From NCBI GenBank assembly GCA_000004985.1, contig GG738870.1: a DNA stretch of 64,000 nt; one strand, written 5' to 3'. Of this stretch, positions 1 to 63,837 are shown piece after piece. How positions within the stretch are numbered: position 1 is the first letter of the stretch; every line of letters begins with the position of its first letter. This stretch comes from Naegleria gruberi (taxonomy: Eukaryota). A program made the translations under genes and the position numbers. The notes under the pieces were generated by a model. That model was not told the origin of the DNA. It saw only the letters and a program-made list of their open reading frames with translations, and did no database searches.

Positions 1-1351
1 CCAACTCAATAGGATGTCTTACTATGGGAAAAAAAGATTCATAATTGTGATATTGAGCAATCTCTTCCGTCAAGTCTATCTTGATTGCTACCTTGAATTT
101 GATCAATAAGTCATTAGTAAAGTGTAGAAATAGAGAAATTAATTGTCTCCCTTCATTTGCTAAATTATAAACATTGAGGAAGTGTAAATAGAAATTAAAG
201 TATTTGAAAATTGAATTGTACATGTTTTGTGGGTAATAATCCATGTGGGTATTCTTTGGAGTTTGGCTATTTGAAATGGAAATTCCCATATTCATGTACA
301 ATTCCAACGACTTTCTGAGATGGTTTCCAATTTTTTCTACAATTTCTGGTGAGGCCTTTCTGCCATGTACTCCAACAAGAAATTGGGCCATGTTGAAGTG
401 AGATTCTGCATTGAATGGAAATATTTCCTCAGTGCACATTGTTAATACCATCTCTGCATGTGAAAACTCAAACATCTTATACAATATCCAAACATAGAGT
501 AATACTGGTTGCATTCTAATAGATGAATTCGTACTTGATCCATTCAGTGATTCCAAAAATCCTTTTTTCTCCTTATTCATCATTAAATTAATACATTCTT
601 CACAATTATTGAGAGCTTCTACATAATCTTCGAGTAGAAAATAACACAAACTTTTCATATAATAAAGTAAATAATCTCTTCCAAATGAAGAAACATCATT
701 TCTCGTCAGCAAAGCTATTCCCTCTAAACATTGTATGTATTCTCCTTCCAGAAGATGTCTATAACTATTAATAACATATCCTCTATTGGTACCATCAAAA
801 TTGAAATTCAAAAATCTCAAATCATTAATAATTTGTTGTTTTGGTATTTCATCGTCTGATTTAACAATCATTGGAATTTTCAAATCAAATATTGAACGTT
901 GAAAAGCATTTCTTTCCTTTGCCAAATCGAGTGGCATTGGTAAATAGAGTCCATAATAATCAAACAGTAGAGAAAATGGACCAAATGACACTCTTTGATT
1001 GTTTCCAACATTAGATTCATTCACATTTTCCATTGAATTATTATCCTTCAAATTTTCCAAACACTCTTTCATCATCTCTTGTGTTGATTTTAATAATTTT
1101 CCAAATAATTTCGGATCAGTCTTTGCCTGTTCATCATAACTGCTGCTCATCACTGCTGGAAAATTAAATTGTCTTTTATAAAATTCCATCGATGAATCAA
1201 TAATTGATGTTGAATTATTCTGCTTCTTCATTTCGGGAATTAATTGATGAATAATTCTTTCCAATCTTTCTCTCTTCTTTTGAACATCTTGATTGCCATT
1301 GAAAATTAAAGGCTTCCTTGTAGATGGCGATGATTGTATTTGATCTTTCAT
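1..1351 (-). CDS. Hypothetical protein, 5' portion only (about 450 aa in window). ATG at 1351; the ORF runs off the window edge at position 1.
   Basis: Uninterrupted minus-strand reading frame from ATG (plus 'cat' 1349-1351) to position 1 with eukaryotic codon usage. Absent from the ORF track only because it has no stop in the window. No recognisable domain. Confidence 0.5.
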   Translation of the reverse strand, partial: MKDQIQSSPSTRKPLIFNGNQDVQKKRERLERIIHQLIPEMKKQNNSTSIIDSSMEFYKRQFNFPAVMSSSYDEQAKTDPKLFGKLLKSTQEMMKECLENLKDNNSMENVNESNVGNNQRVSFGPFSLLFDYYGLYLPMPLDLAKERNAFQRSIFDLKIPMIVKSDDEIPKQQIINDLRFLNFNFDGTNRGYVINSYRHLLEGEYIQCLEGIALLTRNDVSSFGRDYLLYYMKSLCYFLLEDYVEALNNCEECINLMMNKEKKGFLESLNGSSTNSSIRMQPVLLYVWILYKMFEFSHAEMVLTMCTEEIFPFNAESHFNMAQFLVGVHGRKASPEIVEKIGNHLRKSLELYMNMGISISNSQTPKNTHMDYYPQNMYNSIFKYFNFYLHFLNVYNLANEGRQLISLFLHFTNDLLIKFKVAIKIDLTEEIAQYHNYESFFPIVRHPIEL

Positions 1352-56183: not shown

Positions 56184-57430
56184 ATGAGTTCTGTTCGGTC
56201 CTATCCAATTAATGGAGGTGTTGGTGAGCAGGATTACGTGATTCATCTGACCATTCCTGATAGTGTGCTTTCGAACATTGTACAAAATCCTGACCAATTA
56301 AGTTTGAAATTCACATCGGATCCACTTGATAATGATATTGTAAGTTTATTGACTTGTGATGATTTTAATTGTTGTTGTTATTATTGTTGTAGAAATTCGA
56401 ATTTTCGTTTGGTTCTAACAAGATGGAATTATCAGCAGCATCAAAGAATGAATGTCCTGATCTTTATTGTTTGTCTGATAACAAATTTGAACATATAGGA
56501 ATGATTAAACATCGTGCAAATTTAAATTTGGATATGATGAAAGGGAGGGCTCCTAATCCACCTACTCTCACAAAGTCAGGTTCAAAACAATTTGGAAGTA
56601 AAGGTAGTAATTTAAATATAAGAACAGATAGAAAAAAGATTAGTGCATCATCGGCAAATCCTGATTCCATTGCTGCAAAATTCAGGAGAGATGTAGATTC
56701 ACCTGTAGTAATGAGAAAAACAGTTAGTCAAGCGAGTACATCATCAAATAATGAACAACAATCATCAAAACAAACAGAAAAAGTATCAAATAGTCAGTCA
56801 TCATCACAAGCATCAAATGTTATGCCCGAATCACCAAGATCAGATATGGATTCATCACCTATTCGTGGAGATGATTTCGGAAATGATTCTATGCCAGTTT
56901 CACCTTCCAATGAAGAAGAAGTGGAATCTAAGAATGAGTTTGATAGAACAAGTTATCCTCACAAACCACCTGTAAAAGCTAGACCTACAAGTAGTACATA
57001 TACAGTTAAAGTAGGAACAAAACAATTGCAAGCATTTAGTTTATTAACTGTTGCTATTGGTAGTGGAATTACTATTGGAGATACAACTGTAAAGCGACCT
57101 AACATTTCAAAAATTGAAACTTTTGAACAATATAACCAATACAAGAAGGAATTTAATGAGAACTACAAAAAATACAAGGAATTGGATAAAATACTGAATG
57201 ATAATGTAGAATACTTTAAGGGTTTAGCTAGTGAATGGAAAACACTTCCAAATGATGAAAAGACTGAATCCAACAATGAGATACAAAAACTATTTAACAG
57301 AAGAAAAACTGATGTTCAAACACTTACAAAAAAGTTTAACGCTATGCATGAAGAGTTAGATTGCATAAAGAAACTTTTGTTGGAATATGCCACTAGAAAT
57401 GCATCCAATGGAAAATCGAATGACATATAA
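56184..57430 (+). CDS. Hypothetical S/N-rich protein, about 400 aa; 2 exons (56184..56339, 56393..57430) with a 53-nt intron
   Basis: ATG 56184; gtaagt..tgttgtag in phase 0 joins ..DPLDNDI|KFEFSFGSNKMELSAASKNECPDLYCL...; middle is Ser-rich low complexity; C-terminal K/E-rich helix; no confident domain. Confidence 0.5.
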
Positions 57431-57498: not shown

Positions 57499-58377
57499 TT
57501 ATCCATTAGGTTTAACTGCACAGTTAGAAATCAAGTGAGAGAGTTCACTTTCTGGTTGACAGAGAGAAACTTTGCTCAAGACTTCTCTCATTTGTTCAGC
57601 CAAATATTGTGCCATTGCTTTTCTAATTTGGAAGTAGCTGTGGGAAAGCGTCTGCAATTGTTTCACTCTCTTCCTTTCCAAAACCTCAAAGTGAGTCAGA
57701 ATATTGTAAACACTTCTGTCAACTTTTTGAATCAGTTCTTCTTGAGTTTTGATAACTTGCTTATCCTCGGCAATATAGGTTTCTAAATTCTTGACCTCAA
57801 AATCAATTTTTGTCTTTTCAGCTATTGAGGTGAGTGGAGCACTTTTAATTTCCTGCAACTTTTTCGATCGTTCGGCGCATCTCTTTCTCAATTTATCTAA
57901 TTCTTTAAGAGAGCTTGTTTTTTGTGCTTCCAAAATTTTAAACTCTGATTTTCCAGCCTTTGTGAGATCTTTAATTGTTTGAACAAGAACTCCAACTTTT
58001 TGGTATAAATCATCCAATGCAGAACACGGAGTGAATGGATCCTTAGTGAGTGTAGTCATTCCTATGCACATTTTGTGAACAATATTTACATCTTCTGGAG
58101 GGTTTTTGTGCAGGTTTGTATTTGTGGTAAAGGCCTCTACACTTGTCAGTGTTGCCTTATTCATTGTTCTATAATATTCCGAAGTTTTCTTAATTGCTTT
58201 TCCAAAACTTTCCACCTCCTCTGCGTTCTTCTTTAATAAACTCAATACATCAGGAACATTATTAATTAACCTCATTGAAAATTTCGATTCTCCTCTCAGC
58301 TCATCCGAAGGAGAATTGCCCAATATTAAACCAACATCAACAACAAGAGGTGCTTGTTTCGATACTATACCACCCAT
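57499..58377 (-). CDS. N-myristoylation-motif coiled-coil protein (MGGIVSK...), 292 aa; paralogue of the N-terminal module of the divergently transcribed calpain-like gene at 58558
   Basis: N-terminal MGGIVSKQ (MGxxxS/T N-myristoylation consensus). Shares with its neighbour the blocks 'ILTHFEVLERKRVKQL..L' ~ 'ILTHLEIMEKKRFIELKEL' and the overall coiled-coil layout. Confidence 0.6.
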   Translation of the reverse strand: MGGIVSKQAPLVVDVGLILGNSPSDELRGESKFSMRLINNVPDVLSLLKKNAEEVESFGKAIKKTSEYYRTMNKATLTSVEAFTTNTNLHKNPPEDVNIVHKMCIGMTTLTKDPFTPCSALDDLYQKVGVLVQTIKDLTKAGKSEFKILEAQKTSSLKELDKLRKRCAERSKKLQEIKSAPLTSIAEKTKIDFEVKNLETYIAEDKQVIKTQEELIQKVDRSVYNILTHFEVLERKRVKQLQTLSHSYFQIRKAMAQYLAEQMREVLSKVSLCQPESELSHLISNCAVKPNG

Positions 58378-58557
58378 CTTTCTCTATGATGATGATGATT
58401 TCATTCAGTGATGGAAGATGATTTTAGAAAGGTATTGTGATGGTTTTTTTTCGTTTTGGGCGCAGTATATACTACAACGAATGCCTTATCGCACTCAACA
58501 CATGTCTTTTTAGCCCGAATAAAAAAGCACAACCAACAATACAACAATAACATCATC

Positions 58558-60892
58558 ATGGGAGGCATTGTAGCATCGAAACCGACTATTAATCTCTCAG
58601 AGGAACCTCTCACTACACTAGTGGATCCAACCTTCCCGAAATTGTTGTTTGATCACTTTGATAAGGTTACTGATTTTTTCAATGATAAGATTGCTGAAGT
58701 TGAATGTTTTGAAAAAGTAGTGGAGAATTACTCTCATTACTATCACAATATTTATGATATTCATTCTTTTAAAAAAAAGTTGCAGTAAGTGGGTAATATT
58801 GAGGAAATTTAATGACTAATTTGTTTGAATTAGAAAAACCGAAAATGTTCCATCACATTTGGATATTTGCCGTAAGGTTGCTCAAGGATTCGAAGATTGT
58901 GGAAAGGATTATTATAAAATTTATGAAGATTTGGATTCCATTTTGACAAAAATTAGGTTGTTGAAAATAACATTAAAGGAATATGTAAATAGTGCAAAAG
59001 TTGAGGAAACAAATTTGAATTATGAACTGGAAAATGCTAACAAGGATGTTGAAAATTCAAAATTAAAAGAAACCAAATTAACATTATCAGTAATTGAGGC
59101 CCAATCTGAGAACGACCAACCTAAGGTTGACCGACTTCAAATTCAATTGAAACAAGCAAATTCTGACACTGAAAGTTTTGAAAAAACTTTTGAAACTATC
59201 AACAATCAAAGAAAGAGGAAACTAACCAACATTCTGACTCATCTTGAAATAATGGAAAAGAAGAGGTTTATAGAGCTCAAAGAACTAGCTTCGAATTTCT
59301 CAAAAGTACAATTCGATGTTCTTGAATTTGAATCCCATACAACTGAAACATGTGAAAAAGGAATTGATGATATTTCAGAAGAATCAGAAATTAAATATTT
59401 CATTGCAAAATGTACAAAGGGAGATATTAATCAAATCAAAGATGATGTTCCAACTCCAAAAATTCAAATTGCACAGATAGCCTATTTTAACAAAATTCTT
59501 TCTGACCCAGAGGATCCAGACAAGGTTGATTTGGGTGTTTGGCTGAAAAACTCTAGTGACAAAGTTAAAGAGGAAATTGAATCAAGCAAACCCTTTACTG
59601 ACTCTGAATTTCCACCAAATCACAATTCCGTCGTGGGTTTACAAACAATTACGAAGAGATTAGATTTAACCTGGAAGAGAGCTACTGATGTCTACAAGCA
59701 ACTAAAATTTGGAGAGTTTTCACCAGACAATATAGCTCCAAGGAAAGGTGACTCATGGTTACTTTCATATCTGTACTGTATTGCCCAAAAACCAGAATTG
59801 GTTTCAAAATTATTTTCAGTCAACGAACTTAACACTGCAGGAATTTATGAGGTAAATTTATGTGTTGGTGGAGAGTTTACTAAGGTAATTATCGATGACC
59901 ACTTCCCTTTCGATAAAGATAATGTTCCACACTTTGGTGCAAGCAAGAAGGAAGAGCTTTGGGTACCTCTAGTAGTGAAAGCTTTTGCAAAGGCAGTTGG
60001 ATGTTTTTTGAAATTGGAGGCAAACTTTTATTATCTTGGATTTCAAGTACTCACCGGTTATCCAAATTATGACATTATATTCAATGATACAAACTCAAAG
60101 AAACCTTCCTTCCTTGATGCCTGTTGGACAGCAGTTAACCAAGCACCAAAGAAGGGTTATTTGATTAATTGTTTCTCAAGATTTGATGTTGATAAGGGAT
60201 TAGATCCATCAGCTTCTTATATAGTTCTTGACAGTTATTCAAAAGACGATGTTAAATTACTTCAACTTGCAAACCCATGGAAATCAACTCAATGGAATGG
60301 GGATTGGAATGATTCAGATCCAATGTGGACAGAAGAGATGAAGTCTTTAGTTAGTTTCAAGCAAGATAACGAACGATCTTTCTGCATGGCATTCTCTGAC
60401 TTTGTCAAGTGTTTCTCTCATATTAATATTTGTAGATACAATCCTTCATTGAAAAGAAAAACACTTTCAGTTCGAGTTCAGCAATTAGAAAATAATGTGG
60501 AGAACGAATATCCGGTCATTGAGTTCAGTTTCTCAACAGATTCAAATGAATGCTACTTTGGAATTCACCAACTTCACACAATATTTAAGGATGCACCATT
60601 CTCAAATTCAGTTATGGGATTTGTAGTTGTAAATAAGGAGCAAGCCAAAGAAGTTACCAAGTTCATTACAACAACCACTGAGAAGGAGTATTCATTACAA
60701 AAGAATTTGAAAGCAAACACAGTTTATCAGTTAGTCCCTCTACTGTTCCAAAAATTGGCAGATCTTAAAAAGATAGTGATAAGTGTTCAGCAAGCAGACG
60801 AAAAGTTTAGTTGGAAATTGCTAGAAAAATCTCAAGTTATTATTGGCAAGCAAGAAATGACAAAAGCCCAGTTAAAAAAGATGGTTTATTGA
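58558..60892 (+). CDS. Calpain-like protein with N-terminal MGGIVASK myristoylation motif, coiled-coil module and C-terminal calpain protease-core homology lacking catalytic Cys and His (likely non-proteolytic); 2 exons (58558..58784, 58834..60892) with a 49-nt intron
   Basis: Calpain core blocks: 'RKGDSWLLSYLYCIAQKPELV' (calpain QGxLGDCWLLAA, with Ser at the Cys position), 'GIYEVNLCVGGEFTKVIIDDHFPF', 'ELWVPLVVKAFAKAVG', 'SASYIVLD' (calpain GHAYSV, His replaced), 'LLQLANPWKSTQWNGDWNDSDPMW' (calpain RNPWG..EW.G.WSD.S.EW, Asn retained). Intron gtaagt..aattag in phase 2. Confidence 0.65.
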
Positions 60893-63837
60893 AGAGAGTA
60901 CTTCTCTTTCTCTGCTAGCAGTCTCAATTTTTCAGCAAATTCCTTTTCCAATTCCAATCTTCGTTCTTCTAATTCACATAACACTTGCAATACATCATTA
61001 TTTTCATAGCTGGTATTGGAATCAACAAAAGATTTCATGAGCATTACCTTTTTGTCTTGCTCTATGACAGCCATTTTTTGATCTTCATACTTTTGTAATG
61101 CAAAAGTTCTCCTAGGTTTGACAATAAAATCATTTTCAGTAAAGCTAGAGCTAATGCCTAAATCATCTCTTGTTCTCTTCTTTTCATGAATTGATCCTCT
61201 GTTCAGTAAATAATTACTGAAACCATCAATAGAAGATTCCAAACGTTCTTGCTTATTAAATTCATAGGTTTGAGGATTGTTTTGAACTATGGCTTGTTCA
61301 ACAAGTAACTTGTTGTAGTATTTACCAATCTTGATAACATAGTTCTTCAACTTTTTGAATGCCAAGGTCATGAATTCTGGTGAATTATCAGTTAGTAAAG
61401 AGTCACCAATGTCTAGCACTTTGTAATCTTCAAAGTAAAAATCTTGTGTTACAGCTGTGAAATTCTTTCTCATATTTGATACATAAGGTTCCATACGATG
61501 CTTCTCCATATCATTCTTAGTGTAGTACAATAAACAGTACAAGTAAACACCAGCCATAAAACATGGAACAAGTTCCTTAACCTCCAAATAGTACAAAATA
61601 TAATTGATATCGTTGGTAAGGAAAACCTCTTTCAAATTAATTTGAACATTTCCAACGAGTGTGCCCACAGTTACAGGGGTGCCATCAAAGGCCAGATTCA
61701 TCAATGCCTCCAAAGTATCAATATTAATTGGAATATTACTCTTACTTTCAACAATTGAAAAATAGCCCCTAGAATAAATCAAACCAAGAAGAACAGCCAA
61801 ATAACTTGGATGCTCATTGACTATTGGTTCATAATTCAACCATCTTTCTATTGAGGATTTGGCCAAATTTTTTACAACTGATTCATTGAATTTTAAGAGG
61901 TCAAATCCATCCTCCTCTTCAATCTTTGGTGTTTGGATAGGTTGACTTGGTGACTTTTGATTGGTTTTCTCAGAAACTACATCAGAAGTTTCATCCATAG
62001 CCGAACTGCTTGGAGTAAAGTTGTTGACAACATTTTTAATGTCTTTCATGACATCTAATGGTTGTGTGACAACAGCGTCTGCAGCATCTTGAACACTTGT
62101 ACAAAATCTTGTAATAGGTTGATAATGTGAGTGAAGTAAATCATCCAACTTGAGAATGGAATGATTATTCAAAAAGTCATGATATTCAATTGGTTTAGAA
62201 ACATCACAAATAACAGGTTCTCTAATGAGAGGAAGTTTCTCACGACCTGCCTTCTTTCTAAAACCAAATCTAACTTCTTGAACAAAGGCCTTATCGAATT
62301 GAGCTGTTTCATCAGCAGTTACACCAAAGAATGAATTACCAGATTGTTTCAAAAAGCTTTCCTTGTTCATTCTGTAGGCAATAATGAAACCACAATGTTT
62401 CACTAAATCAGCACTGCACTTTCTACCATAAGTTCCAATAGCAATTTGTGCACTGTAATCTTGTGGATTGACTGATTGTGAGTAGAATGTTTCCAAATGT
62501 GTTAAAACTTCTCTCTTTTTTGATGAATTTTCACAGAATACTACAAATCCAAAAATTGCAATTTCATTCAAATTAAGTTTTGGAATGAGTTTTTCAATTT
62601 CATTGCATTGATACATTCTATTTTGTGTCATTTGGAAAATTGAATTTGTAGGATTTTGATTCAAGAAGAGTTTCAATGTTACTTTTGCAGTTTGAACATT
62701 GTAACATACAGGAAAACCTGCGCGTTGTTGATTAATTTTACCATTTAAAGTTGCTTTAGAAACTGCAGTTGGAGGATAGGCACTCATTGAAGCACTTGAA
62801 GAAAAGAAGGAGGAGAAAACATTTGGTTGTAAATGTTGTTGAGAATATGAATGGGTTGTTTGATCAACATTTTGTTGCATTAAATTATTTCCTGACAGTA
62901 ACAAAATTGGATTGTCATTATAATTATTTGTTGCATTTGATTTATCTTGAAGAAGTGAATTAATTGATTGTGGAGGAAGCATTTGTGTGGAGGATGAATT
63001 TGAAGAAGGAGGTGATGATGAAAGATTTGAATGTTGAGGTGTTTGCACCAATGTGACAGTATTCATCAATTGAGTTAATTGATCAGGAGTTAAACCATTT
63101 GGTGATCCATAATTACCTAAATTAGGACTTGTAGAATTAACTGGTGATGGTGTATTCAAGTGATTTGGTGAATAGTTTGGATAAAAATCAAAAGTACTAT
63201 TGTAATTATTGTAATTATTATTATTTAAACTATTTAAAGCTTGATGATTCAAATTAAATTGAATATTTTGTATCAATGATGACAAATTATTGTTATTATT
63301 ATTAGGATAATCAGTTAATTGTTGTTGTTGTTGTTGTAATAATTGATAAATAGCATTAGTATTATAAATAGTAGTATTATGATGATGTGGTTGAGTAGTA
63401 CCACCAACAGCACCAGTATTATACATTGATTGTGCTTGCTGTTGTTGAATGGTATGATTATTAGGTTGACCACCATTAATCATCATATTCGAATTATTAG
63501 TAACAGTAGTAGTAGCAGTAGTATTATTGGATACTACTAGGGAAGGTGATGATGAAATCATTCCTCCAACAATACCAACACCACTACTTCCCACCACTGA
63601 TGATGATGGTGCTGATGATGATGATGATGGAGTGTTTGCTGACGATGATGATGATGGTGTAGTATTGCTCATAACAATGTTATTAGTAAGTACTGCTGCA
63701 GTTGTATTATTATTATGATGATGATTAGTACCTCCAGAATTCAAAACAACGTGATGAGGTATAACAGTTTGTGTTGTTAATGAGGATGGTGGTCGTTGAG
63801 TTTGATTTGAAGTAGTGGCTGTGGGTGGTTGATTCAT
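60886..63837 (-). CDS. Large N/Q/S/T-rich protein (983 aa) with ordered, conserved-looking C-terminal 600 aa; unknown function
   Basis: ATG 63837; poly-N, poly-Q, poly-S/T and HHHNN tracts in the N-terminal 380 aa; then a non-repetitive domain and a C-terminal coiled coil (LELEKEFAEKLRLLAEKEKYSLQ). Its stop (60886-60888) lies 1 nt upstream of the stop of the convergent calpain-like gene (60890-60892). Confidence 0.55.
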   Translation of the reverse strand: MNQPPTATTSNQTQRPPSSLTTQTVIPHHVVLNSGGTNHHHNNNTTAAVLTNNIVMSNTTPSSSSSANTPSSSSSAPSSSVVGSSGVGIVGGMISSSPSLVVSNNTTATTTVTNNSNMMINGGQPNNHTIQQQQAQSMYNTGAVGGTTQPHHHNTTIYNTNAIYQLLQQQQQQLTDYPNNNNNNLSSLIQNIQFNLNHQALNSLNNNNYNNYNSTFDFYPNYSPNHLNTPSPVNSTSPNLGNYGSPNGLTPDQLTQLMNTVTLVQTPQHSNLSSSPPSSNSSSTQMLPPQSINSLLQDKSNATNNYNDNPILLLSGNNLMQQNVDQTTHSYSQQHLQPNVFSSFFSSSASMSAYPPTAVSKATLNGKINQQRAGFPVCYNVQTAKVTLKLFLNQNPTNSIFQMTQNRMYQCNEIEKLIPKLNLNEIAIFGFVVFCENSSKKREVLTHLETFYSQSVNPQDYSAQIAIGTYGRKCSADLVKHCGFIIAYRMNKESFLKQSGNSFFGVTADETAQFDKAFVQEVRFGFRKKAGREKLPLIREPVICDVSKPIEYHDFLNNHSILKLDDLLHSHYQPITRFCTSVQDAADAVVTQPLDVMKDIKNVVNNFTPSSSAMDETSDVVSEKTNQKSPSQPIQTPKIEEEDGFDLLKFNESVVKNLAKSSIERWLNYEPIVNEHPSYLAVLLGLIYSRGYFSIVESKSNIPINIDTLEALMNLAFDGTPVTVGTLVGNVQINLKEVFLTNDINYILYYLEVKELVPCFMAGVYLYCLLYYTKNDMEKHRMEPYVSNMRKNFTAVTQDFYFEDYKVLDIGDSLLTDNSPEFMTLAFKKLKNYVIKIGKYYNKLLVEQAIVQNNPQTYEFNKQERLESSIDGFSNYLLNRGSIHEKKRTRDDLGISSSFTENDFIVKPRRTFALQKYEDQKMAVIEQDKKVMLMKSFVDSNTSYENNDVLQVLCELEERRLELEKEFAEKLRLLAEKEKYSLQ

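What the first reader, a model, noticed from the sequence alone, without database searches (positions are those of the whole stretch)
57499..60892. Divergent paralogue pair of N-myristoylation-motif coiled-coil proteins, one fused to a catalytically dead calpain core
Two genes are transcribed head-to-head from a 180-bp spacer (58378-58557) and both start with MGGIV(S/A)SK, a textbook N-myristoylation signal. They share a coiled-coil module (ILTHFEVLERKRV.QL / ILTHLEIMEKKRFIELKEL). The plus-strand copy continues into a calpain protease-core homologue in which the active-site Cys is Ser (GDSWLLS) and the His position is Ser (SASYIVLD), while the Asn (NPW) is kept. This looks like a local duplication followed by fusion or loss of a pseudo-protease domain. 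It is reminiscent of acylated, catalytically altered calpain-like cytoskeletal proteins of kinetoplastids and ciliates.
Basis: seen in the sequence. Interest (0 to 1): 0.6.

Follow-up and report, generated by a model that had tools for sequence, protein, structure and literature searches.

The report
Myristoyl F-BAR pair with dead calpain
Two neighbouring Naegleria gruberi genes encode related proteins that carry a lipid-anchor signal and a divergent membrane-bending F-BAR domain, and one of them is also fused to a calpain protease domain that has lost its catalytic residues; this combination of known domains has not been described in the papers searched.

Summary
The window is Naegleria gruberi. 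Gene A (57499..58377, minus strand, 292 aa, NAEGRDRAFT_79910) and gene B (58558..60892, plus strand, one 49-nt intron, 761 aa, NAEGRDRAFT_49404) lie head-to-head across 180 bp. Both start with a myristoylation motif, MGGIVSK and MGGIVASK.

They align colinearly over about 280 residues (BLASTP E=5e-15). B then continues into a full-length calpain core (Pfam E=2.4e-48) whose triad is Ser/Ala/Asn instead of Cys/His/Asn.

- **The C-terminus of B:** It folds as a calpain C2-like domain.
- **The family:** It was found only in Naegleria-like genomes. Members are F-BAR alone, F-BAR plus calpain (active or dead), or F-BAR plus two SH3 domains. Nearly all keep the MG start.
- **Age and selection:** The pair is conserved in N. 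fowleri. Both genes are under purifying selection.

A 2012 calpain survey already listed B as a calpain homologue keeping only Asn. The F-BAR fusion is not in the literature searched. The proposed function, a membrane-anchored non-catalytic scaffold, is inferred.

The parts
57499..58377 (-). Gene A (NAEGRDRAFT_79910): intronless CDS of 292 aa encoding an F-BAR-only protein
   Evidence: ORF. A 98%-identical copy lies on a second-strain contig. Identifiers. Between strains pN/pS = 0.22, p = 0.015.
58357..58377 (-). Codons 1-7 of A (MGGIVSK): N-myristoylation motif
   Evidence: PS00008 pattern met at the N-terminus. The N. fowleri orthologue starts MGGIVSKE. Residues 1-33 are disordered in the AlphaFold2 model.
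57520..58275 (-). Divergent F-BAR domain of A (about aa 35-286), including the NILTHFEVLERKRV motif at 57664..57705
58378..58557 (.). 180-bp spacer between the two start codons; presumed bidirectional promoter plus both 5' UTRs
   Evidence: No strain differences in 180 bp against 6.2 expected from the silent-site rate, P about 0.002. Promoter function was not tested.
58558..58784 (+). Gene B (NAEGRDRAFT_49404) exon 1; codons 1-8 encode MGGIVASK (myristoylation motif)
   Evidence: The octapeptide is identical in the N. fowleri-like contig L003 and in P0005.
58785..58833 (+). Intron of B, 49 nt, GT..AG, phase 2
   Evidence: Shared by the annotated model P0001. Five of 49 positions differ between strains, including a 1-nt indel. 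A phase-2 intron sits at the equivalent place in the N. fowleri-like B and A orthologues.
58834..60892 (+). Gene B exon 2, read through to the stop codon (761 aa in total)
   Evidence: Continuous ORF. 16 synonymous and 1 non-synonymous strain differences, pN/pS = 0.016.
58630..59416 (+). Divergent F-BAR domain of B (about aa 25-270, interrupted by the intron), including NILTHLEIMEKKRF at 59228..59269
   Evidence: BLASTP against A gives E=5e-15. Member of the family profile that matches F-BAR structures.
59594..60436 (+). Calpain protease-core homologue (CysPc, aa 330-610) with triad positions Ser383 (59753..59755), Ala536 (60212..60214) and Asn556 (60272..60274)
   Evidence: Pfam PF00648 E=2.4e-48. 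PDB phmmer against m-calpain E=2.6e-25 with a residue-level alignment. Family alignment. Coordinates.
60452..60859 (+). C-terminal beta-sandwich domain (about aa 616-751), C2-like (calpain domain III type)
   Evidence: AlphaFold2 model with pTM 0.82 is all-beta here. Foldseek aligns 480-505 columns to full-length m-calpain, i.e. core plus domain III, and hits the calpain-7 C2L domain 2qfe at E=5.6e-4. A sequence profile alone found nothing.

Best explanation
This is an ancient, conserved head-to-head gene pair of Naegleria. It encodes two paralogous proteins built on an N-terminal myristoylation signal followed by a divergent F-BAR domain.

A is the F-BAR module alone. B is F-BAR, then a calpain core that has lost its nucleophile Cys (Ser) and general-base His (Ala), then a C2-like domain.

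Shown here: the gene structures, the paralogy, the domain identities, the triad substitutions, purifying selection on both genes, and conservation of the pair and of the MG start in N. fowleri.

Inferred: both proteins are co-translationally myristoylated and dimerise through the F-BAR domain on membranes. B then acts as a non-catalytic calpain-like binding or scaffold module held at the membrane. It may bind the same partners as its catalytically intact F-BAR-calpain paralogue NAEGRDRAFT_67588. A arose from an F-BAR-calpain ancestor by inverted local duplication and loss of the calpain part.
For: - **Organism and gene identifiers:**
- **Paralogy:** BLASTP E=5e-15, colinear. The A and B clades are sisters at 86% bootstrap.
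- **Calpain core and C2-like domain:**
- **Dead triad:** Shown, and listed independently in Table S1 of PMC3563603. The N. fowleri orthologue has different residues at the same positions (Asn, Thr) and a deletion of about 30 aa around the NPW motif. This indicates that catalysis is not under selection.
- **Selection:** pN/pS is 0.016 for B and 0.22 for A.
- **MG start:** It fits PS00008 in 9 of the 10 N-termini checked, including both orthologue pairs.
- **Pair conservation:** The N. fowleri locus tags are consecutive, FDP41_013292 and FDP41_013293. Each gene keeps its syntenic 3' neighbour.
- **Single origin of the fusion:** Family members share the linker, the calpain core and the C2-like domain through to a common QLKK ending.
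Against: - No experiment or expression data were found for either gene.
- Myristoylation, dimerisation and lipid binding are untested.
- Pfam's own FCH and BAR models do not detect the module.
- Coiled-coil proteins reach E about 1e-4 in the same profile search, so only the FBP17 hit and the fold searches carry weight.
- B's F-BAR domain is acidic (pI 5.2, net charge -12). It has Glu56 where FBP17 has the lipid-binding Lys33, which argues against strong electrostatic membrane binding by B on its own.
- Parsimony alone does not separate one fusion with two losses from three independent fusions.
Confidence: 0.7

Rival explanations
1. A and B form an obligate F-BAR heterodimer. The basic F-BAR-only subunit A supplies membrane binding, and the acidic subunit B brings the pseudo-calpain. 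The conserved bidirectional promoter keeps the two in balance.
For: - The head-to-head layout is conserved across the genus.
- The spacer is invariant between strains.
- The charges are complementary: A has pI 9.07 (+8) and B has pI 5.21 (-12). The same direction is seen in N. fowleri, 7.06 against 5.86.
- A keeps Lys at the FBP17 K33 position, whereas B has Glu.
- A and B are each other's closest paralogues.
Against: - No interaction evidence was obtained, and multimer prediction could not be run.
- The N. fowleri spacer exceeds 1.1 kb, so a tightly shared promoter is not a conserved feature.
- Most characterised F-BAR domains are homodimers (general knowledge).
Confidence: 0.2
2. The module has a BAR-like fold but works mainly as a cytoskeleton linker, like trypanosome CAP5.5, rather than as a membrane-curvature scaffold. 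The myristate would tether cortical cytoskeleton to the membrane.
For: - CAP5.5 is an acylated calpain-like protein with triad S-Y-N that organises the subpellicular corset. Short acylated proteins made only of its N-terminal domain also exist (PMC4181241).
- B has the triad S-A-N.
- Several family modules are acidic or neutral.
Against: - The kinetoplastid N-terminal domain (DUF1935) gives no Pfam hit in A or B at E up to 1.
- The fold and profile evidence points specifically to F-BAR.
- Naegleria amoebae lack interphase microtubules (abstract of PMC7594500).
Confidence: 0.12
3. B is still a protease and uses Ser383 as its nucleophile.
For: Ser occupies the Cys position and Asn556 is kept.
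Against: - The general-base His is Ala536.
- The oxyanion-hole Gln is Ala or Pro, depending on the alignment.
- The N. fowleri orthologue has Asn and Thr at the Cys and His positions and a deletion around NPW.
Confidence: 0.04
4. Gene A is a decaying partial duplicate (a pseudogene), not a functional gene.
For: A evolves faster than B: pN/pS is 0.22 against 0.016, and it is only 34% identical to its N. fowleri orthologue.
Against: - The ORF is intact in two N. gruberi strains and in N. fowleri.
- The MGGIVSK start is conserved.
- Non-synonymous changes are significantly under-represented, p=0.015.
Confidence: 0.03

Closest known systems
F-BAR (FCH-BAR/EFC) domain proteins such as FBP17/CIP4, Hof1/Imp2/Cdc15, Rgd1, GMIP and PACSIN
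   Different: - Pfam FCH and BAR models do not detect it.
- It is preceded by a conserved myristoylation motif.
- It is fused to a calpain core and a C2-like domain rather than to SH3, RhoGAP, kinase or muHD domains.
- B's copy is acidic.
- Dimerisation and lipid binding are untested.
Non-peptidase calpain homologues (calpain-6/calpamodulin, Drosophila CalpC, androglobin)
   Same: A complete CysPc fold with the catalytic Cys and His replaced, kept under purifying selection (PMC4631099).
   Different: The lineage and the domain context differ. No F-BAR or BAR partner appears among the domains catalogued in two calpain surveys (PMC3563603; PMC4631099).
[quoted passage not shown]
   Same: - An N-terminally acylated pseudo-calpain: CAP5.5 has the triad S-Y-N and B has S-A-N.
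- It is accompanied by short acylated proteins made only of the shared N-terminal domain (PMC4181241).
- Both lineages belong to Discoba (general knowledge).
   Different: - The shared N-terminal domain there is kinetoplastid-specific (domain I-K/DUF1935), whereas here it is an F-BAR.
- There is no Cys for dual acylation here.
- Homology between the two systems beyond the calpain core was not shown.
Other Naegleria F-BAR-calpain family members (NAEGRDRAFT_67588, FDP41_013378, FDP41_013292)
   Same: The same MG start, F-BAR, CysPc and C2-like architecture. FDP41_013292 is the orthologue of B.
   Different: NAEGRDRAFT_67588 keeps Cys, His and Asn and is presumably an active protease. FDP41_013378 has lost all three residues.

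Membership tests
Calpain (peptidase family C2, CysPc domain) | Significant full-length match to the calpain catalytic-domain profile | tested here: met
   PF00648 E=2.4e-48, profile positions 1-297 of 297. Match to m-calpain E=2.6e-25. Foldseek E=4.5e-25.
Calpain (peptidase family C2, CysPc domain) | Catalytic triad Cys/His/Asn intact (required for an active peptidase) | tested here: not met
   The positions hold Ser383, Ala536 and Asn556. Listed as 'N' only in Zhao et al. 2012 Table S1. B is therefore a non-peptidase homologue.
Calpain (peptidase family C2, CysPc domain) | C2-like domain III after the core, as in many but not all calpains | tested here: met
   Met by predicted structure only. 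Alignments of 480-505 columns to full-length m-calpain, and calpain-7 C2L 2qfe at E=5.6e-4. The sequence profile was negative.
F-BAR domain | Sequence similarity to known FCH/F-BAR domains | tested here: met
   The family profile matches FBP17 2efl at E=4.1e-10 (profile positions 20-253 against chain 5-252). It also matches syndapin at 2.3e-5, Syp1 at 3.8e-4 and Rgd1 at 5.2e-4. Pfam's own models are negative for single sequences.
F-BAR domain | Elongated three-long-helix F-BAR fold | tested here: met
F-BAR domain | Antiparallel dimer forming a curved scaffold | not testable with these tools
   Only monomer prediction was available.
F-BAR domain | Basic membrane-binding surface | tested here: inconclusive
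   A has pI 9.07 and Lys63 at the FBP17 K33 position. B has pI 5.21 and Glu56 there. The surface was not mapped onto a dimer.
N-myristoylated proteins | Met-Gly start fitting the N-myristoyltransferase consensus (PROSITE PS00008 at the N-terminus) | tested here: met
   A, B, their orthologues and four other family members all match. The first ATG of each ORF is the MG start.
N-myristoylated proteins | Actual covalent myristate on Gly2 | not testable with these tools
   This needs metabolic labelling or mass spectrometry.
Kinetoplastid CALP/SKCRP family | Kinetoplastid N-terminal domain I-K (DUF1935) | tested here: not met
   No DUF1935 hit in A or B at E up to 1. The N-terminal module is an F-BAR.
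Kinetoplastid CALP/SKCRP family | Dual acylation motif (Gly2 plus a nearby Cys) | tested here: not met
   There is no Cys in the first 10 residues of any family member.

The most novel reading that the evidence does not exclude
Naegleria has a lineage-specific class of lipid-anchored F-BAR scaffolds that hold calpain modules, active or dead, at curved membranes. In the pair studied here, the basic F-BAR-only protein A and the acidic F-BAR-pseudocalpain B would form an asymmetric heterodimer. The myristate would replace the amphipathic helix of N-BAR proteins, and the dead protease would serve as a substrate trap or a regulator of the active paralogue.
Probability: 0.15. Interest if true: 0.65.

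Novelty: new variant of a known kind. Interest (0 to 1): 0.42.

Why it matters
Calpains in protists are known for many domain partners, but a membrane-curvature (F-BAR) partner is absent from both calpain surveys read here. I found no description of an F-BAR domain preceded by a conserved myristoylation signal.

If the inference holds, Naegleria targets calpain-type modules to membranes in a way that parallels the acylated pseudo-calpains of trypanosomes but uses a different domain. That would be a case of convergent architecture within Discoba. It would also give a testable handle on membrane and cortex remodelling in an amoeba whose genus includes the pathogen N. fowleri.

The work also corrects two public gene models: the 3' end of NAEGRDRAFT_49404 and the start of FDP41_013292.

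Tried and rejected
- **Pfam on the N-terminal module:** Scans of A, B and ten relatives gave nothing significant. The best hit was BAR_4 at E=0.036 in one paralogue.
- **Word-indexed protein searches:** Searches with B, with A and with the family profile returned almost only self or near-self hits. The exhaustive profile search was needed to find the family.
- **Annotated model P0001:** It has no exact entry in the contig index.
- **C-terminal domain by sequence:** A profile of this domain against PDB sequences gave only weak ribosomal L31 noise. Only the predicted structure revealed the C2-like fold.
- **Literature on the genes:** Searches for the gene, protein and UniProt identifiers found no paper. 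The supplements of two Naegleria differentiation papers held no data for these genes. The calpain mentions in a N. fowleri vesicle paper refer to T. cruzi.
- **AFDB fold search:** The library was unavailable.
- **Kinetoplastid CALP/SKCRP membership:** Considered and rejected because DUF1935 is absent.
- **Possible E2F-like element in the spacer:** TTTTGGGCGC does not fit the canonical TTTSSCGC, so no claim is made.
- **P0015:** This repeat protein (E=3e-5) from the profile search looks unrelated and was ignored.
Full report
**What is there.** The window is Naegleria gruberi. The plus-strand protein is 100% identical to NCBI XP_002676760 / NAEGRDRAFT_49404, and the minus-strand protein is XP_002676853 / NAEGRDRAFT_79910. 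Both are annotated only as 'predicted protein'.

Gene A is an intronless ORF at 57499..58377 on the minus strand, 292 aa, starting MGGIVSKQ. Gene B starts at 58558 with MGGIVASK. It has a 49-nt GT..AG phase-2 intron at 58785..58833 and runs to the stop at 60892, giving 761 aa. The two start codons are 180 bp apart.

**The intron is real.**
- The NCBI model uses it.
- Between this sequence and a 99.4%-identical second-strain contig (L001), the 49 nt carry four substitutions and a 1-nt indel. The 2,283 coding nt of B carry only 17 substitutions.
- The N. fowleri-like orthologue has a phase-2 intron at the same place.

**Paralogy.** BLASTP of A against B gives E=5e-15 at 22% identity. The alignment is colinear over essentially the whole of A and the first 269 residues of B, with composition-based statistics. 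The similarity is therefore not just coiled-coil composition. No further copies occur in the window.

**Calpain part of B.** Pfam Peptidase_C2 matches residues 330-610 over the whole profile, E=2.4e-48. phmmer against PDB gives m-calpain at E=2.6e-25. In that alignment, and in a family alignment with catalytically intact paralogues, the key positions read as follows:

| m-calpain residue | Role | B residue |
|---|---|---|
| Cys105 | nucleophile | Ser383 (GDSWLLS) |
| Asn286 | triad | Asn556 (kept) |
| Gln99 | oxyanion hole | Ala or Pro, depending on the alignment |

Read from the same alignment, against the sites given in PMC4631099, the core Ca2+-site residues are only partly kept. Asp96, Glu175 and Asp299 are retained, Glu292 is Gln, Glu323 is Ser, and the Ile89 loop is deleted.

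Zhao et al. 2012 already list this protein (their Table S1) as 'CysPc, 600 aa, N'. The pseudo-protease status is therefore previously catalogued.

The N. fowleri orthologue has Asn and Thr at the Cys and His positions. It also has a deletion of about 30 residues around the NPW motif, within a continuous ORF. Catalytic geometry is evidently not what selection maintains. Even so, B is under very strong purifying selection: 16 synonymous against 1 non-synonymous strain difference, pN/pS 0.016, p about 1e-10.

**C-terminus of B and the public gene model.** The last ~150 residues gave no sequence-profile hit. An AlphaFold2 model of residues 300-761, built with a ten-sequence family alignment (pLDDT 78.7, pTM 0.82), is all-beta in this region. 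Foldseek aligns 480-505 columns to full-length m-calpain, which spans the core plus domain III. It also hits the calpain-7 C2-like domain 2qfe at E=5.6e-4. B therefore reads MG-motif, F-BAR, dead CysPc, C2-like.

The public 600-aa model splices out 60350..60435, an 86-nt frameshifting segment. That removes the end of the core and the whole C2-like domain. The unspliced reading is supported by the full-length Pfam match, the family alignment to a shared QLKK ending, and the fold result.

**The shared N-terminal module is an F-BAR domain.** Pfam finds nothing in A. An exhaustive profile search of 1.84 billion representative proteins, using A plus the N-terminal part of B, found only 14 proteins. 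Every hit that carries a source name is from Naegleria (N. gruberi, N. fowleri, N. lovaniensis). The remainder are unnamed environmental contigs, apart from one unrelated repeat protein, P0015.

A 12-sequence profile of the module matches these F-BAR domains:

| F-BAR domain | E-value |
|---|---|
| FBP17 (2efl), over nearly its whole length | 4.1e-10 |
| syndapin | 2.3e-5 |
| Syp1 | 3.8e-4 |
| Rgd1 | 5.2e-4 |
| Cdc15 | 0.03 |

**The family.**
- **Module alone:** A and its N. fowleri orthologue FDP41_013293; FDP41_010694; N. lovaniensis C9374_014250.
- **Module fused to CysPc and C2-like:** B and its orthologue FDP41_013292, both dead. NAEGRDRAFT_67588 and an environmental relative keep an intact Cys/His/Asn. 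FDP41_013378 and its relatives have lost all three residues.
- **Module fused to two SH3 domains:** FDP41_009000, a classical F-BAR architecture.

Nine of the ten N-termini checked start with Met-Gly and fit the PS00008 myristoylation pattern. Only the SH3 member does not. The annotated N. fowleri B orthologue appears to start at MVVSIL, but the genomic contig shows an upstream in-frame start giving MGGIVASKN. The octapeptide is conserved between species while the following ~25 residues are not. This is the signature expected of an N-myristoyltransferase recognition sequence. No Cys is nearby, so dual acylation is not indicated.

**History.**
- In a neighbour-joining tree of the module, the A and B clades are sisters at 86% bootstrap. 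Each contains both species.
- In N. fowleri the two genes carry consecutive locus tags. On N. fowleri-like contigs each keeps the same 3' neighbour as in N. gruberi. This forces a head-to-head layout there too, although with a spacer of more than 1.1 kb.
- The duplication therefore predates the split of these species.
- The F-BAR-calpain members share linker, core and C2-like domain, so a single fusion followed by loss of the calpain part in A is the more likely history. It is not proven.
- The N. fowleri-like A orthologue has a phase-2 intron within a few alignment columns of B's intron. This suggests a DNA-level duplication followed by intron loss in N. gruberi A.

**Likely mechanism (inferred).** Both proteins would be myristoylated and would dimerise through the F-BAR domain on membranes. 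B would present a non-catalytic calpain-like binding surface there, and A would be a scaffold-only subunit.

A's module is basic (pI 9.07) and keeps Lys at the position of FBP17 Lys33. B's module is acidic (pI 5.21) and has Glu there. The spacer shows no strain differences where about 6 are expected (P about 0.002). Together these observations make an A:B heterodimer an attractive idea, but it is untested (about 0.2).

**Comparison with known systems.** The closest functional analogy is to the trypanosomatid acylated pseudo-calpains and their short relatives. CAP5.5 has the triad S-Y-N, and the SKCRP/SMP proteins consist only of the shared N-terminal domain (PMC4181241). The defining kinetoplastid domain is absent here, so this is analogy and not membership.

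Neither calpain survey lists an F-BAR or BAR partner. Text searches for F-BAR with calpain, and for F-BAR with N-myristoylation, returned nothing relevant.

**Verdict.** The finding is correct and can be sharpened. The pair represents a genus-restricted family with the architecture myristoylation motif, F-BAR, then calpain. B is a conserved pseudo-protease member and A is a calpain-less paralogue. This is a new combination of well-known domains and has been partly touched by automatic annotation. Function rests on inference only, so the interest is moderate.

Noticed in passing
window 60350..60435: The public N. gruberi model of gene B (XP_002676760, 600 aa) removes an 86-nt frameshifting 'intron' here. 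This truncates the calpain core and deletes the C2-like domain. Homology and the predicted fold favour the unspliced 761-aa reading.
   Followed up: yes
L003 207..443: The annotated N. fowleri orthologue of B (FDP41_013292) starts at an internal Met (MVVSIL). The genomic ORF starts nine codons upstream with MGGIVASKN, which restores the myristoylation motif.
   Followed up: yes
window 58378..58557: The 180-bp spacer has no differences between two N. gruberi strains, against about 6 expected from the silent-site rate (P about 0.002). It contains TTTTGGGCGC at 58454 next to a TATATA stretch. The N. fowleri-like contig has TTTTGGCGC about 200 nt upstream of the B orthologue.
   Followed up: partly
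L004 about 1191..1246, compared with window 58785..58833: The N. fowleri-like orthologue of A has a phase-2 intron within a few alignment columns of B's phase-2 intron. N. gruberi A has no intron, which suggests an ancestral intron that was lost in N. gruberi A.
   Followed up: partly
window 60886..63837 (minus strand): A convergent 983-aa ORF overlaps B's stop codon by 7 nt. Its N-terminal third is rich in N, Q, S and T homopolymer runs. Its C-terminal 600 aa are 63% identical to the N. fowleri-like neighbour of the B orthologue. No function was assigned.
   Followed up: no
window 56423..57430 (plus strand): A 335-aa ORF converges on gene A. Its N. fowleri-like counterpart (35% identity) carries a weak Occludin_ELL Pfam hit.
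   Followed up: no
P0010 / P0022 (N. fowleri orthologue of B), alignment A5 columns about 606-640: About 30 residues around the calpain NPW...W motif are deleted in a continuous ORF. This is further erosion of the former active-site region in the pseudo-calpain.
   Followed up: partly
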